From the NCBI GenBank assembly GCA_017676145.1, contig GCA_017676145.1_3628.1: 64,000 nucleotides of DNA, one strand, 5' to 3'. Both the position numbers and the translations under genes were made by a program. Below are positions 47,039-52,029 of the stretch, piece after piece (positions within the stretch are counted from its first letter, which is position 1; each line of letters starts with the position of its first letter). Under the pieces are notes generated by a model. The model saw nothing but the letters and a program-made list of their open reading frames with translations. It ran no database searches and had not been told where the DNA came from. Source of the stretch: a phage.

Positions 47039-47140
47039 AAGCTTTACCCCTCAAAACAGTATAACAAAATAGCCCTCGTGTTAGAGGGCTAGTATCTCCG
47101 ATTACTCTATTCTACCACATCTAATTAAGATTGGCAACAC

Positions 47141-47920
47141 TTAGATAAAACGCTTGAACATAGAAGGTGATGAGATTGATGGAATCACACAAGGAAGTGC
47201 TACCTCCTCTTTCTCCAGGAAATTAATCGCAGAAGCCACACAGTCGGCCCAGTCGTCTTTTCTGTTAAATGTTGATCTTTCCCCGTTGAATTTTTCAAGT
47301 TCAGTCAGAAATGCTTCCAGAGTATCAGGATGGAAACTGGATTTTACAATCCTCACCATTCCTTGTTGGGCAAGATTGGCAAAAGGTGAGAACCTTGTTA
47401 GTTTAGATTTGTTGGAAGGCATTGGATCTTCTTCAACCCTAAACCCTTCGGCGAGTAAGGATCTGGAGGAGGTTAAGAACTCACTCTTACCTGCCTGACC
47501 TGGGTCCACAGAGAATACGATTATACAATCATCACCATCAAACTGCGCCTGTTTCCTGATGATCACATCTCGTTCACCAGCCTTTTTACAGAACTTACCT
47601 TCCAGACCTGTGGAATATCTCCCGTCATCCACGTTCTCAGGACAATAATCACCGGACAGGTAATAAAAGCCGTCGCTATCTTTACTTACCTTAACACTGG
47701 CGGTAAAGTCAGGAAATTTATTACCGGAAGTTCTCTCGGTTCCTGCCTTATCCCATGCCCTACAAGATACTGATCCAAGGGGTACTCTATCGGCATCACG
47801 AAGGAAAGATCTTTGAAAATAGTTTGCACCCTCAGGCTTTGCAAACCAGTTACCATGAAGAAGCTGAGCTTTTTCCAGTTCCGGCAGACCTTCAAGGAAA
47901 GCAAGGTATTCGGGGTTGTC
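47141..47920 (-). CDS. terminase large subunit, exon 3 (nuclease domain); 5' boundary approximate (+/-30 nt)
   Basis: Frame is open upstream of the listed 47632 start back to a stop at 47948-47950, reading ...DNPEYLAFLEGLPELEKAQLLHGNWF...RAWDKAG...; continues terminase after intron 2. Confidence 0.65.
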   Translation of the reverse strand, partial: DNPEYLAFLEGLPELEKAQLLHGNWFAKPEGANYFQRSFLRDADRVPLGSVSCRAWDKAGTERTSGNKFPDFTASVKVSKDSDGFYYLSGDYCPENVDDGRYSTGLEGKFCKKAGERDVIIRKQAQFDGDDCIIVFSVDPGQAGKSEFLTSSRSLLAEGFRVEEDPMPSNKSKLTRFSPFANLAQQGMVRIVKSSFHPDTLEAFLTELEKFNGERSTFNRKDDWADCVASAINFLEKEEVALPCVIPSISSPSMFKRFI

Positions 47921-48923
47921 TCTTAAGCAGACAGGATTATCGAATCCTTATATTCAAAGGTGGTCGCAACACCACCTTCCGCACCTTTACGTGCTGCTGC
48001 ATGTTACCATGCAGAGTAGACTATATCACCACCCATCTCAGGGTGCTTCGCTTTTCGAGCGCCATAAGCTTGCGCCCTACTCCCTCTCGGGATAGTCGTT
48101 GAACTACATTACCAATCGTAATTGTTTGAAATATAGGTGTAAGTCTTACGATCTTTTATTCCTTTAACAACACTAAAACTTACTCCCCACTTCTTAGCTA
48201 TTTTATTTACACACAAAACCCTGTCGCTAAGATCCTCGCAGATACCTATTATCTTGTGCTCACTTATCCTATTAGAGGTTGGCACTTTTCTAAAGTTAAA
48301 CTCTTTAGAAATATCTGGGTATACTGAGCCATTCTTTATACCACTTACAAGTGGTTGATTGACACCAAACATTTCACAAATGTCTTTTACCCTTGCACCT
48401 TGCTCTAACAGCCTACATATTTCAAGAGCAGTGGCATCATCTAGGGACCTGTATCTATTGATATAGTCCTTTTTAAGTCCCATTTCATGAGCGTGATGTG
48501 TGTTTTCCTCAGGCGTTGTCCACTCAAGGTTCCATGCGGCGTTATTCAACTTATTACCATCCAGGTGGTTTACTTGAGTTTTCACGCTGGGATTATCATT
48601 ATCAACAAAAGTCATAGCAATCACTCTGTGGACTAGCACTTGGAACTTTTTACCGCCCTCGCACAAAGTTACCATAGCATAGCCAGTCTTTTTCTGCACA
48701 TTAGGATGGAGGAATTTATTAGAATACAGACTGTAAATTCTTCCATCGTATGTAGCACAATAATGATTGTAACCTAAAAAGCCTAAATTTTTCATTTCAA
48801 ACATCTCCCTACTACAGGTTCGGAAGGGTAATTATAGCTGCTGATTGTCCGTTTAGCAATCGGATTTTCCAGCAATTAACGAAGTTATTCGACGTGCATT
48901 TCTGCACGAAGCCACTATCATTT
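47921..48923 (-). mobile_element. group I intron 2 in terminase large subunit gene, carrying an HNH homing endonuclease ORF; ends approximate
   Basis: Minus-strand core elements P AATTGCTGGAAAA (48866-48878), Q AATCAGCAGC (48837-48846), R GTTCAACGACTA (48083-48094), S GATATAGTC (48019-48027) in canonical order; in-frame stop right after the exon; ORF between Q and R. Confidence 0.75.
48109..48804 (-). CDS. intron-encoded HNH homing endonuclease (231 aa)
   Basis: NHLDGNKLNNAAWNLEWTTPEEN HNH motif; located inside intron 2 between Q and R elements. Confidence 0.8.
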   Translation of the reverse strand: MFEMKNLGFLGYNHYCATYDGRIYSLYSNKFLHPNVQKKTGYAMVTLCEGGKKFQVLVHRVIAMTFVDNDNPSVKTQVNHLDGNKLNNAAWNLEWTTPEENTHHAHEMGLKKDYINRYRSLDDATALEICRLLEQGARVKDICEMFGVNQPLVSGIKNGSVYPDISKEFNFRKVPTSNRISEHKIIGICEDLSDRVLCVNKIAKKWGVSFSVVKGIKDRKTYTYISNNYDW

Positions 48924-49241
48924 AATGGTTGCGCCTATAAACGAGAATGACAACGGTCTTGGCTTAATCTCCACACCTAGTCCGTTAACCGTGGTGTATT
49001 TCTCTATTAACTCCTCTTTAGAGTCTCCCCAGATAAATTCACCGTCGCGCCGGATAAAATATCTTTTCTTACCACATTTCTCCGGATCTGGATACCCTTC
49101 ATCGTCCAACCACCACCTAACCAGTTTGGCAAGCATGTGTTCTGAGTCGGGGTTACAGCTGATAACCATTCTTGATGGATACTTTGACTGAGATCGCAGA
49201 CGAGACATTAGATAGTCTATCTGCTCCCATTCGAATTGCGT
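48924..49241 (-). CDS. terminase large subunit, exon 2; boundaries approximate
   Basis: In-frame segment ...(T)QFEWEQIDYLMSRLRSQ...VISCNPDSEHMLAKL...; bounded upstream by intron 1 and downstream by a stop at the start of intron 2. Confidence 0.6.
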
Positions 49242-49560
49242 CGTTTATGTTCAGGCAAGGTCGCTAGTCTTGCCCCGCCATTTTCAGGCAGCTGCATGTC
49301 TCCATGCAGACCAGACTATATCTTATAAGCTATAACAACAGCTTACCCTCCCGTTTCGAATCGCTTGATTCTACGTCTTTCGACTAGTCGTTGAACGTTC
49401 ATCCTCTCGGATGCTTCGCTGCGGATTATCTAAATCAACACTCTGTTACCATACCTTCGATCTCTCTTCGAAGCCTCTATTATGTTACCATAACAGGTTG
49501 GTGGTGTTAATAATAAAGATTTCCCCGCAATTAGGGAGGTTTTACGAGAGCTACAAATTA
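49242..49560 (-). mobile_element. group I intron 1 in terminase large subunit gene (no ORF)
   Basis: Minus-strand P AATTGCGGGGAA (49521-49532), Q AATCCGCAGC (49418-49427), R GTTCAACGACTA (49385-49396), S GATATAGTC (49316-49324); exon ends GGT followed by TAA, as in T4 td-type introns. Confidence 0.75.
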
Positions 49561-49986
49561 ACCCTCATCGAAGCAAACCATGGTGTACTCAAGCCCTTGA
49601 TGGTTAAGCTTATCTTGGACATACTCCATGTGGCAGTATTTTACAACGGCCCCTTTTTTGCTCCTGTCCCACTTGCCAGTGCTCGGATCAAACCGTGGAA
49701 AAATAAACTTATGATCCTTCTCTCTGAACTTTGGTTTAATGTTTTCAGGCAGATCACTGTAAATAGCTACTGCTTTAGGCCATAGACCTCCTTCACCCTC
49801 CAGCTGCGGGGTTGTTCTTCGGAACATAACCACAGAGCTGTGTGGGTCATCAATAATTTTAAGTGGCATTAGCTGCAAGAGGAACGACTTGCCAGAACCG
49901 GCTGCACCTCCGATCACCAAAATATCTGCATCGTTCTCAAGGATCATCTTCTGCTTTTCAGAACACGGTCCGTAAATCTTAGACAT
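49561..49986 (-). CDS. terminase large subunit, exon 1 (ATPase domain)
   Basis: Walker A GGAAGSGKS and Walker B MVCFDEG; start ATG overlaps the o-spanin stop (TAATG). Confidence 0.75.
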
Positions 49987-51089: not shown

Positions 51090-51166
51090 TGGTCTCCACG
51101 GAGTGATTCGAACACTCGACCTCCTGATCCCAAATCAGGCGCTCTACCAAGCTGAGCTACGCGGAG
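51090..51166 (-). tRNA. tRNA-Pro (anticodon UGG)
   Basis: Manual cloverleaf: acceptor CTCCGCG/CGTGGAG (C1-G72), D-arm GCTC/GAGC, anticodon loop TTTGGGA, T-arm GAGTG-TTCGAAT-CACTC, encoded CCA. Confidence 0.8.
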
Positions 51167-51177
51167 TATTTATAATT

Positions 51178-51252
51178 TGGTGGCCCTGGGTGGAATTGAA
51201 CCACCGTCTGGCGATTATGAGTCGCTTGCTTGAACCTTCCAGCTACAGGGCC
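51178..51252 (-). tRNA. tRNA-Met (anticodon CAU; elongator Met or Ile2 type cannot be distinguished)
   Basis: Manual fold: acceptor GGCCCTG/CAGGGCC, anticodon loop CTCATAA, T-arm GGTGG-TTCAATT-CCACC, encoded CCA. Confidence 0.75.
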
Positions 51253-51253
51253 A

Positions 51254-51329
51254 TGGTGCTGATGGCAGGACTTGAACCTGCAACCTATTGATTACAAATC
51301 AATTGCACTACCGATTGTGCTACATCAGC
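51254..51329 (-). tRNA. tRNA-Thr (anticodon UGU)
   Basis: Manual fold: acceptor GCTGATG/CATCAGC, D-arm GCAC/GTGC, anticodon stem ATTGA/TCAAT with loop TTTGTAA, T-arm GCAGG-TTCAAGT-CCTGC, encoded CCA. Confidence 0.8.
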
Positions 51330-51335
51330 AAAAAG

Positions 51336-51440
51336 GTGCTAGGTGATGGAATCGAACCACCTATGTATTCAACGACTACCTCGTCTATTTTCAGGATTAA
51401 AAATCCTCGCCCTTGCCAAAGGGCTTACCTAGCGCAATAT
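51336..51440 (-). ncRNA. tRNA-like element, non-canonical (pseudo-tRNA or small stable RNA)
   Basis: Has 7-bp acceptor-like stem GCTAGGT/ACCTAGC, D-like arm GCCC/GGGC and T-arm GGTGG-TTCGATT-CCATC, but no 7-nt anticodon loop and ~30 nt extra between anticodon-like and T arms; CCA not fully encoded. Confidence 0.35.
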
Positions 51441-51531
51441 GTTGACCATGTGGCTAGTCGGCGATGACGACTGTAACATTTGATAATCCGGTTCTGCTTC
51501 CGGCTTTCGCTTAATTACAAGGTCAACAATG

Positions 51532-51622
51532 TGGCGGAGAGTAATGGAATCGAACCATCATCGAGTCATCCTCAACGGGACGGTTTTCAAGACCGCTTGA
51601 GCACCATTGCTCCCTACCCTCC
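51532..51622 (-). tRNA. tRNA-Ser (anticodon UGA), type II with long variable arm
   Basis: Acceptor GGAGGGT/ACTCTCC, anticodon arm GCGGT-CTTGAAA-ACCGT nearly identical to E. coli tRNA-Ser(UGA) as recalled, ~20-nt variable arm, discriminator G, encoded CCA. Confidence 0.75.
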
Positions 51623-51736
51623 TTTATAAATTACACTGATAATGACACTGATTTTCGAGCAGTTAGTGACTAGTATAAACGACGATAAATATCAATGCCA
51701 TTATCTGTATGATTTATGCATTTAAAAATATAAATT

Positions 51737-51824
51737 TGGTGGTGAGTGATGGAGTCGAACCACCCGAATCGCAATGATAACAGATTTACAGTCTGCCCCG
51801 CTACCCCTACGGAATTAACTCACC
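51737..51824 (-). tRNA. tRNA-Tyr (anticodon GUA), type II
   Basis: Acceptor GGTGAGT/ACTCACC, anticodon stem CAGA/TCTG with loop CTGTAAA, long variable arm, T-arm GGTGG-TTCGACT-CCATC, encoded CCA. Confidence 0.75.
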
Positions 51825-51954
51825 TAAATACTAATATTTAAATTCTTTTTAAAATAGCTAGTGTTCTCACCACTAACTATGAGGTATCGGTAAAGTGGTT
51901 ACCGCCACTTGCCGAAGATTTACTCTGCTAAAGTAAGCTACATTAAAAAGAACT

Positions 51955-52029
51955 TGGCACCCCGTACTGGACTCGAACCAGTGTCAACGGCTTAGAAGGC
52001 CGCTGCTTTATCCACTAAGCTAACAGGGC
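51955..52029 (-). tRNA. tRNA-Arg (anticodon UCU)
   Basis: Acceptor GCCCTGT/ACGGGGT (two G-U pairs), D-arm GCTT/AAGC, anticodon stem GCGGC/GCCGT with loop CTTCTAA, T-arm ACTGG-TTCGAGT-CCAGT, encoded CCA. Confidence 0.7.

What the first reader, a model, noticed from the sequence alone, without database searches (positions are those of the whole stretch)
47921..48923. Second group I intron in the terminase gene carrying an HNH homing endonuclease
A ~1-kb insertion separates terminase exon 2 from the nuclease-domain exon. It has P (AATTGCTGGAAAA) and Q (AATCAGCAGC) upstream and R (GTTCAACGACTA) and S (GATATAGTC) downstream of a 231-aa HNH endonuclease ORF, the layout of ORF-bearing T4-type introns. 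Two introns in one terminase gene, one with a homing endonuclease, marks an actively invaded locus and is easy to mis-annotate as three separate genes.
Basis: partly seen in the sequence, partly recalled or inferred. Interest (0 to 1): 0.85.

Follow-up and report, generated by a model that had tools for sequence, protein, structure and literature searches.

The report
Known HNH-bearing intron in phage terminase
This is a real self-splicing group I intron, carrying a homing-endonuclease gene, that interrupts the DNA-packaging (large terminase) gene of an rV5-like E. coli phage, but the same element was already described and annotated in phage rV5, so it is ordinary.

Summary
The finding is correct in substance and already known. 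The window comes from a Vequintavirus (about 97% identical to phage rV5). Its large-terminase gene, on the minus strand, has three exons. Intron 2 is 979 nt (48924-47946). The spliced protein is 515 aa, not about 485.

The junctions rest on four lines of evidence:
- Intron-less alleles in related phages show the same joins.
- A U·G pair in P1 lies exactly at the 5' splice site, and the intron ends in G.
- The spliced protein aligns without gaps, 513/515 identical, to an uninterrupted TerL.
- A natural ORF-less copy of the same intron scores 95.6 bits against Rfam Intron_gpI (cut-off 50).

A hand-drawn P1-P10 model, with the P7.1/P7.2 helices I recall as typical of subgroup IA, pairs in 99.3% of cells and has 15 compensatory pairs.

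The ORF (231 aa, probably 228) sits in the P6a loop. It is an I-HmuI-type HNH endonuclease under purifying selection. The intron is present in about 1 in 5 close relatives and the ORF in 15 records, as expected of a mobile element.

Kropinski et al. 2013 and RefSeq NC_011041 already describe this three-part terminase gene with an HNH gene. The only small addition is a conserved sigma-70-like promoter inside the intron.

The parts
49561..49986 (-). TerL exon 1 (142 codons; Walker A GAAGSGKS, Walker B ...CFDEG). Ends in U 49561.
   Evidence: ORF. Junction from the intron-1-less allele ECML-10. P1 of intron 1 in the Rfam alignment.
49242..49560 (-). Intron 1: an ORF-less group I intron of 319 nt (context, not the finding itself).
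   Evidence: Rfam RF00028, 85.2 bits. Absent from L004, L007 and L009 exactly at these limits.
48925..49241 (-). TerL exon 2 (317 nt). Ends ...GCA ACC AU. In unspliced RNA the frame runs on to a TGA at 48920-48918.
47946..48924 (-). Intron 2: a 979-nt group I intron whose first base is U 48924 and whose last base is G 47946.
   Evidence: Intron-less alleles L002, L006, L008, L009 and L010 join exon 2 directly to exon 3 at these limits. Rfam half-hits. ORF-less ortholog at 95.6 bits.
48910..48930 (-). P1: exon/intron strand 48930-48924 pairs with the internal guide 48916-48910. The U·G wobble U48925·G48915 marks the 5' splice site. Guide bases 48919-48917 can pair with the first three exon-3 bases 47945-47943 (P10).
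   Evidence: Rfam alignment of the identical sequence in L003. Pair counts: P1 100% paired; P10 has one compensatory change.
48839..48908 (-).
   Evidence: Compensatory changes occur in P2, P3 and P5.
48827..48838 (-). P6 and P6a 5' strands (48838-48835, 48832-48827). Their partners are 48106-48103 and 48113-48108, so the ORF is the P6a loop and its last codons UGG UAA form the P6a 3' strand.
48831..48859 (-). Sigma-70-like promoter candidate, TTGCTA-17 nt-TATAAT. The -35 lies in the P5 loop and the -10 at the start of the ORF-associated insert.
   Evidence: One of only 2 matches in 64 kb against 0.06 expected. Kept or improved in the diverged copies L016 (TTGACA-N17-TATAAT) and TH18. The -10 is absent from the ORF-less intron. 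Function is inferred only.
48109..48804 (-). HNH homing-endonuclease ORF, 231 aa from the first ATG. The likelier start is ATG 48795 (228 aa), 9 nt after the Shine-Dalgarno GGGAG at 48809-48805.
   Evidence: Pfam HNH_3 and HTH matches. PHROG 59 HNH endonuclease, 6.9e-51. PDB 1U3E I-HmuI, 4.9e-12. In L016 the first ATG is GTG, while MKNLGF... is conserved.
47946..48104 (-).
47141..47945 (-). TerL exon 3 (805 nt including the stop): end of the ATPase domain (FDNP...) plus the RNaseH-like nuclease domain.
   Evidence: About the first 105 codons have no in-frame start codon (the only listed ORF in this frame starts at 47632), so this piece cannot be translated on its own.

Best explanation
Window 48924-47946 (minus strand) is a mobile group I intron with the P7.1/P7.2 helices that I recall as typical of subgroup IA. 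It is inserted in the large-terminase gene of a Vequintavirus, between the codons for Thr-Ile and Phe-Asp-Asn-Pro of a conserved ATPase-domain motif.

Splicing (inferred mechanism). After transcription the RNA folds into the P1-P9 core. An external guanosine attacks after U48925, which is held in a U·G pair by the internal guide. The freed exon 2 then attacks after the terminal G47946. The exons are ligated into an mRNA for an intact 515-aa TerL.

Mobility (inferred mechanism). The P6a loop carries a gene for an I-HmuI-type HNH endonuclease with helix-turn-helix DNA-binding modules. The gene is probably expressed from its own promoter-like site and Shine-Dalgarno sequence inside the intron. 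In a mixed infection with an intron-less relative, the enzyme would cut or nick the intron-less terminase allele near the insertion site. Repair from the intron-bearing genome would then copy the intron, together with a short stretch of flanking exon.

Shown here: the anatomy, the exact junctions, the conserved and covarying RNA structure, the endonuclease family, purifying selection on the ORF, and the presence/absence polymorphism. Inferred: splicing itself, endonuclease activity and specificity, and promoter use.
For: Junctions:
- Intron-less alleles join exon 2 to exon 3 exactly at 48925|47945.
- The spliced ORF is 515 aa and aligns 513/515 with no gap to an uninterrupted TerL, L009.
- Pfam Terminase_6N matches residues 25-294 as one stretch across both junctions.

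Ribozyme:
- Rfam half-hits occur in the window, and the natural ORF-less copy scores 95.6 bits.
- The U·G pair in P1 sits at the deduced splice site and the intron ends in G.
- The hand-drawn P1-P10 model pairs in 99.3% of cells. It has 15 pairs with changes on both sides, against a mean of 2.7 in shuffles (0 of 500 reach it) and 0-1 in slid controls.

Endonuclease:
- Family matches are HNH_3, PHROG 59 and I-HmuI.
- The ORF is intact in three lineages. Window versus TH18 shows 88 synonymous against 44 non-synonymous codon differences.

Mobility:
- About 120 close TerL alleles were found. Intron 2 is in about 24 of them, and the HNH ORF is in 15 records.
- The same intron occurs at the same site in lineages whose exons are only 70-79% identical, while the intron parts outside the ORF are 86-89% identical.
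- Exon base -3 is C in all 6 intron-bearing alleles and A in all 8 intron-less alleles examined.

Viability and precedent:
- rV5 carries the same architecture and is a propagated laboratory phage.
- A different HNH-bearing TerL intron in the same subfamily (CB7) splices in vivo by RT-PCR (PMC7344957).
Against: - No RNA or enzyme data exist for this intron. Splicing, cleavage and homing are inferred.
- The window copy does not itself reach the Rfam gathering score in one hit (29.4 and 23.6 bits).
- The covariation set is small: 7 sequences in 3 real lineages. The structure was drawn from one of them, and four of the 15 compensatory pairs come from the replaced P6/P6a hairpin of the ORF-less form.
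- The higher conservation of the intron core relative to the exons could reflect structural constraint rather than recent transfer. The ORF itself is only 72-75% identical across those lineages.
- The residue before the catalytic His is Asn (VNH) where I-HmuI has Asp (VDH). From memory, that Asp helps bind the metal ion.
Confidence: 0.93

Rival explanations
1. The ribozyme still splices, but the HNH gene is a decaying or inactive passenger. The element would then be inherited vertically and no longer home.
For: - ORF-less forms of the same intron exist in 9 close records, as expected in a gain-and-loss cycle.
- Asn replaces the Asp that precedes the catalytic His in I-HmuI.
- Across lineages the ORF is no better conserved than the exons.
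Against: - The ORF is full length in every copy examined, with a 2:1 excess of synonymous over non-synonymous codon changes.
- The Asn is conserved in all three lineages.
- The patchy distribution among near-identical phages and the tightly linked flanking exon base fit ongoing transfer.
Confidence: 0.1
2. The insertion is a free-standing HNH gene that splits TerL into separately translated fragments that assemble after translation, with no splicing. The paper read describes such a case for NrdA of Aeromonas phage Aeh1 (the mobE gene).
For: Many GenBank records annotate the pieces as separate genes.
Against: - A complete group I core flanks the ORF.
- Exon 3 has no in-frame start codon for about 105 codons.
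- The exon 2 frame stops two codons into the intron.
- The exon limits coincide to the base with the U·G pair and the terminal G.
Confidence: 0.03
3. The HNH protein is a packaging accessory of the terminase, as proposed for HNH proteins in the Kala et al. 2014 paper cited, rather than a homing enzyme.
For: It lies inside the terminase gene. The CB7 paper raises this idea for terminase-associated HNH genes.
Against: - It is present in only 15 records, against about 120 closely related terminase alleles. It therefore cannot be required for packaging.
- It belongs to the I-HmuI intron-endonuclease family and has HTH modules.
Confidence: 0.02

Closest known systems
Phage rV5 terminase gene rv5_gp065 (ORF64ABC, a join of three pieces) with the intron-borne HNH endonuclease rv5_gp066; Kropinski et al. 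2013, Virol J 10:76
   Same: It is the same element at the same site. The region is 96.8% identical over 2.9 kb. There are two introns, with the HNH ORF in the second.
   Different: Only point differences: 4 amino-acid changes in the HNH protein and a few base changes in helices that keep pairing. The paper gives no structure model, splice-site proof or population survey.
Phage T4 td intron with I-TevI
   Same: Both are phage group I introns with P7.1/P7.2 helices. From memory, the td endonuclease ORF also sits in the P6a loop and overlaps a structural strand. The 3' core of the ORF-less intron 2 copy shows about 72% sequence similarity to td introns of T4-like phages and 88% over 42 nt to the T4 nrdB intron.
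   Different: The host gene differs (thymidylate synthase versus terminase). From memory, I-TevI is a GIY-YIG endonuclease rather than an HNH one, and its expression signals differ (T4 middle and late promoters).
I-HmuI, the HNH endonuclease of the Bacillus phage SPO1 DNA-polymerase intron (PDB 1U3E)
   Same: The endonuclease family is the same: E = 4.9e-12 over residues 11-109, including the HNH motif. It is intron-encoded in a lytic phage. From memory, it is a strand-specific nickase.
   Different: It has a different host gene, intron and target. The C-terminal DNA-binding part does not align at sequence level. Asn replaces the Asp before the catalytic His.
TerL group I introns of other phages: Lactobacillus phage LL-H (Mikkonen and Alatossava 1995, cited) and Pectobacterium phage CB7 (PMC7344957)
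   Same: Both are group I introns in a large-terminase gene. CB7 belongs to the same subfamily, its intron carries an HNH ORF, and it was shown to splice by RT-PCR and sequencing.
   Different: The CB7 intron sits at GVD|EGT near the Walker B motif, not at the intron 2 site. LL-H is an unrelated siphovirus.

Membership tests
Group I intron (Rfam RF00028) | Score at or above the family's gathering cut-off (50 bits) | tested here: inconclusive
   The window copy gives two half-hits of 29.4 and 23.6 bits because the 0.7-kb ORF splits it. The natural ORF-less ortholog, 97.5-100% identical in the shared parts, scores 95.6 bits.
Group I intron (Rfam RF00028) | Conserved core helices P3-P8, including the P/Q (P4) and R/S (P7) pairings and the P3-P7 pseudoknot | tested here: met
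   All helices could be drawn. 99.3% of cells pair, 15 pairs are compensatory, 0 of 500 shuffles reach that, and slid controls give 0-1.
Group I intron (Rfam RF00028) | 5' splice site after a U that forms a U·G pair with the internal guide in P1, and a G as the last intron base | tested here: met
   U48925·G48915 appears in the Rfam alignment of the identical sequence. It lies exactly at the junction defined independently by intron-less alleles. The intron ends in G47946.
Group I intron (Rfam RF00028) | Removal restores an intact host gene | tested here: met
   The 515-aa product aligns gap-free, 513/515, to an uninterrupted TerL. The Terminase_6N match is continuous across the junction.
Group I intron (Rfam RF00028) | Guanosine-dependent self-splicing of the RNA | not testable with these tools
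   This needs in vitro transcription and splicing, or RT-PCR. The indirect argument is that phages with this architecture (rV5) are viable, and TerL is essential by established knowledge.
Subgroup IA introns of phages (T4 td/nrdB type) | Extra helices P7.1 and P7.2 between P7 and the 3' strand of P3 (a criterion recalled from memory) | tested here: met
   Hairpins at 48092-48081 and 48077-57 pair in 100% and 97.6% of cells, but only one-sided changes were seen. Assignment to a sub-subgroup was not tested.
HNH homing endonuclease, I-HmuI type | HNH catalytic motif and homology to a characterised member | tested here: met
   Pfam HNH_3 at 28 bits (cut-off 24.8). PHROG 59, 6.9e-51. I-HmuI 1U3E, 4.9e-12, with the His and Asn residues aligned.
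HNH homing endonuclease, I-HmuI type | Encoded in a peripheral loop of an intron, and sporadically present at one site among close relatives | tested here: met
   The ORF is in the P6a loop. It is in 15 records, against about 120 close alleles, and an ORF-less intron form and empty sites also exist.
HNH homing endonuclease, I-HmuI type | Site-specific cleavage or nicking of the intron-less allele, and intron homing in crosses | not testable with these tools
   This needs enzyme assays and mixed infections.
Packaging-associated HNH proteins (Kala et al. 2014, as cited) | Conserved partner of the terminase in all related phages | tested here: not met
   The ORF is absent from most close relatives.
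Terminase large subunit, T4-type | N-terminal ATPase and C-terminal RNaseH-like nuclease domains | tested here: met
   Terminase_6N, 4.6e-20 (residues 25-294), and Terminase_6C, 2.7e-6 (residues 394-489), both on the spliced protein.

The most novel reading that the evidence does not exclude
The endonuclease cassette may carry a host-type (sigma-70-like) promoter built jointly from ribozyme and insert. The -35 lies in the P5 loop and the -10 is the first bases of the ORF-associated insert in P6. The homing enzyme would then be made independently of, and possibly earlier than, the late terminase transcript in which the intron resides. The site is rare in the window (2 matches against 0.06 expected). 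It is kept or improved in two diverged copies, and its -10 is missing from the ORF-less intron.
Probability: 0.35. Interest if true: 0.3.

Novelty: already known. Interest (0 to 1): 0.12.

Why it matters
The main use is for annotation. The terminase of this phage should be recorded as one 515-aa protein joined from three exons (49986-49561, 49241-48925, 47945-47141), not as three genes. Terminase-based phylogenies and packaging-type predictions should use the spliced sequence.

The locus is also a convenient natural series for studying intron gain and loss. Close relatives show empty sites, an ORF-less intron and an ORF-bearing intron, a second intron with or without an EndoVII-like ORF, and further introns and an intein. 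None of this changes what is known about group I introns or homing endonucleases.

Tried and rejected
- The Rfam gathering-threshold scan of the whole window found only intron 1. Intron 2 appeared only in a permissive scan of the 1.2-kb region, as two half-hits.
- A sequence search of the spliced TerL against PDB chains found nothing at E <= 0.01. The insertion site could therefore not be placed on a solved terminase structure.
- I looked for a hairpin that would sequester the Shine-Dalgarno sequence of the HNH gene, which from memory is how I-TevI is regulated. The fold is no more stable than shuffles (z = +1.18), so I dropped the idea.
- I checked whether the RT-PCR-proven TerL intron of phage CB7 is the same intron. 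It lies at a different site near Walker B, so it supports the interpretation only by analogy.
It was rejected.
- I did not run the large protein-database searches or structure prediction, because the Pfam, PHROG and PDB sequence matches already settle the protein family.

Full report
**What is in the window**

All genes around the finding lie on the minus strand. The ORF list shows three terminase-like pieces: 49986-49558, 49208-48918 and 47632-47141. A 231-aa ORF lies at 48804-48109 between the last two. A whole-window Rfam scan at gathering threshold finds one group I intron at 49570-49292 (85.2 bits) and a tRNA cluster, but nothing at the reported coordinates. A permissive scan of 47800-49000 finds two Intron_gpI half-hits on the minus strand. 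The first, 48206-47997, scores 29.4 bits (E = 2.7e-5). The second, 48934-48573, scores 23.6 bits (E = 1.6e-3). The model is simply split by the 0.7-kb ORF.

**Origin and prior knowledge**

The 2.9-kb region is 96.8% identical to Escherichia phage rV5 (Vequintavirus) and matches about 130 close relatives. RefSeq NC_011041 annotates rv5_gp065, 'terminase large subunit', as a join of three pieces (ORF64ABC). The HNH endonuclease rv5_gp066 lies inside the second gap. Kropinski et al. 2013 have a section titled 'Introns in terminase'. [quoted passage not shown] The BASEL-collection records also annotate joined terminase genes. The element is therefore already known.

**Exact boundaries**

Relatives provide every state of the locus:
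- JohannBauhin (L002), 241Ecol014PP (L006) and three IMG/VR contigs (L008-L010) lack intron 2.
- RudolfGeigy (L003) has intron 2 without the ORF.
- ECML-10 (L004), L007 and L009 lack intron 1.
- L009 lacks both introns.

The intron-less sequence reads ...GGCGCAACAATATTCGATAATCC.... The window reads ...GGCGCAACCAT|TAAATGATAG... at the 5' side and ...ATATAAGG|ATTCGATAATCC... at the 3' side. The only join that reproduces the intron-less reading frame with a U before and a G at the end of the intron is 48925|48924 ... 47946|47945. That makes intron 2 979 nt long.

With intron 1 at 49560-49242 (319 nt), the exons are 426, 317 and 805 nt and give one 515-aa ORF. This protein aligns without any gap, 513/515 identical, to the uninterrupted TerL ORF of L009. 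It matches Pfam Terminase_6N over residues 25-294 in one stretch, plus Terminase_6C. Its estimate of about 485 aa is too short.

**The RNA**

The ORF-less ortholog, L003:1577-1844 (268 nt), scores 95.6 bits against Rfam Intron_gpI (E = 3.7e-24). Its alignment places the P1 U·G wobble at exactly the U that the comparative junction identifies.

I drew a full model and mapped it to window coordinates. It contains P1, P2 (GNRA loop), P3, P4, P5, P6, P6a, P7, P7.1, P7.2, P8, P9 (GUAA loop), P9.1, P9.2 and P10. I then counted pairs on an alignment of seven copies. These were four close ORF-bearing copies with the ORF removed in silico, the natural ORF-less copy, and two diverged copies from L016 and phage TH18 (L033), whose exons are only 70-79% identical to the window.

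- 99.3% of cells form standard pairs.
- 15 pairs show changes on both sides, against a mean of 2.7 in shuffles (0 of 500 reach it) and 0-1 in slid controls.
- The compensatory changes fall in P2, P3, P5, P8, P9.1, P9.2 and P10.

There are caveats. The set holds only three real lineages, and the structure was drawn from one of the sequences. Four of the 15 pairs come from the replaced P6/P6a hairpin of the ORF-less form. From memory, helices P7.1 and P7.2 place the intron in subgroup IA, the class of the T4 introns. The 3' core also shows sequence similarity to td and nrdB introns of T4-like phages and to many other phage introns.

**The ORF**

The ORF occupies the terminal loop of P6a, and its last codons (UGG UAA) form the 3' strand of P6a. 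It matches several references:
- Pfam HNH_3, plus weaker helix-turn-helix families.
- PHROG 59, 'HNH endonuclease', at 6.9e-51.
- The intron endonuclease I-HmuI of Bacillus phage SPO1 (PDB 1U3E, E = 4.9e-12), with the His and Asn residues of the motif aligned.

The first ATG (48804) directly abuts the Shine-Dalgarno GGGAG and is GTG in L016. The conserved start is ATG 48795, 9 nt downstream, which gives 228 aa. The ORF is full length in all copies. Window versus TH18 shows 88 synonymous and 44 non-synonymous codon differences, so the ORF is under purifying selection.

**Evidence for mobility**

- In the INPHARED phage collection, about 120 records carry a close (>=90%) exon 3.
- Intron 2 is present in about 24 of them. 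Nine of those have the ORF-less form.
- The HNH ORF is present in 15 records.
- Intron 1 is in 53 records, 30 of which have an EndoVII-like ORF inserted.
- The same intron occupies the same site in TH18 and L016. There the intron parts outside the ORF are 86-89% identical while the flanking exons are 70-79% identical.
- Within 200 nt on either side, the only exon position that sorts perfectly with intron presence is -3. It is C (ACC) in all six intron-bearing alleles. It is A (ACA) in all five close intron-less alleles and in three of five more distant ones examined; the other two (L014, L015) have a different codon there (ACT). This C pairs with a G in P1.
- Intron 1 shows a similar contrast in the single comparison made: the last exon base is U in the intron-bearing window and C in the intron-less ECML-10.

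This pattern is what co-conversion of flanking exon sequence during homing, with selection for P1 pairing, would leave.

**Mechanism**

The mechanism given in Best explanation follows from established knowledge of group I introns and I-HmuI-type enzymes. It is inferred here, not shown. Indirect support comes from two facts. rV5 is a viable phage with the same architecture. A different HNH-bearing TerL intron in the same subfamily (CB7) was shown to splice by RT-PCR and sequencing (PMC7344957), although it lies at another site.

The rivals are weak.
- A split, unspliced terminase is contradicted by the complete ribozyme. It is also contradicted by the lack of any in-frame start codon in about the first 105 codons of exon 3.
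- A packaging-accessory role for the HNH protein is contradicted by its absence from most close relatives.
- An inactive, decaying endonuclease cannot be excluded, but it is disfavoured by the purifying selection.

**One small addition**

A sigma-70-like site, TTGCTA-17 nt-TATAAT (48859-48831, minus strand), lies just upstream of the HNH gene. Its -35 is in the P5 loop and its -10 is at the start of the ORF-associated insert. It is one of only two matches to TTGMYA-N17-TATAAT in the 64-kb window (0.06 expected). In L016 it is a perfect TTGACA-N17-TATAAT and in TH18 it is TTGTAT-N16-TATAAT. The ORF-less intron lacks the -10. The rV5 paper reports that rV5 promoters resemble the E. coli consensus, and no promoter is annotated at this place in the rV5 record. 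Independent expression of the endonuclease is therefore plausible but untested.

**Verdict**

Novelty: already known. Interest is low.

Noticed in passing
window 48831-48859 (- strand): A sigma-70-like promoter candidate, TTGCTA-N17-TATAAT, lies inside intron 2 just upstream of the HNH gene. It is rare in the window and conserved or improved in diverged intron copies. Its -10 is absent from the ORF-less intron.
   Followed up: partly
window 48927 (exon 2, position -3) and 49561 (last base of exon 1): Exon bases next to the insertion sites sort with intron presence. For intron 2, position -3 is C with the intron and A without, in all alleles compared. For intron 1, the last exon base is T in the window and C in the one intron-less allele read (ECML-10). 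Both intron-linked bases pair in P1. This looks like co-conversion, or selection for P1 pairing.
   Followed up: partly
window 49242-49560 (- strand); L005:1157-1738: Intron 1 (319 nt, Rfam 85 bits) is ORF-less here. In 30 of the 53 records that have it, a roughly 580-nt insert replaces 49344-49327 and carries a gene annotated as an EndoVII-like 'recombination endonuclease'.
   Followed up: partly
L013:2034-5117; L016:1200-2210; L033:1-1340: Terminase genes of more distant relatives hold further elements. There is an intein-like insert in the Walker A motif (GGAAG|C...N|SGKS). There is another group I-like intron at NHQG|LEYT. In L013 there is a third-site intron (Rfam 70 bits) with a 192-aa ORF at RKDD|W. 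The gene is a hot spot for selfish elements.
   Followed up: partly
L016:3421-3495 versus window 49322-49247: The 3' domain (P9 to the end) of the L016 copy of intron 2 is about 82% identical to the 3' domain of the window's intron 1. This suggests that the two introns are related or have exchanged modules.
   Followed up: no
GenBank MG0656xx records: Eighteen records named 'Campylobacter phage' with host Campylobacter jejuni match this E. coli Vequintavirus region; those listed are 96-97% identical. The host label looks doubtful.
   Followed up: no
window 51093-52029 (- strand): A cluster of six tRNA genes lies upstream of the spanin and terminase genes.
   Followed up: no
window 47070-47091 (- strand): A terminator-like hairpin with a T-run follows directly after the TerL stop codon. 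It matches the position of the rho-independent terminator annotated in rV5.
   Followed up: no
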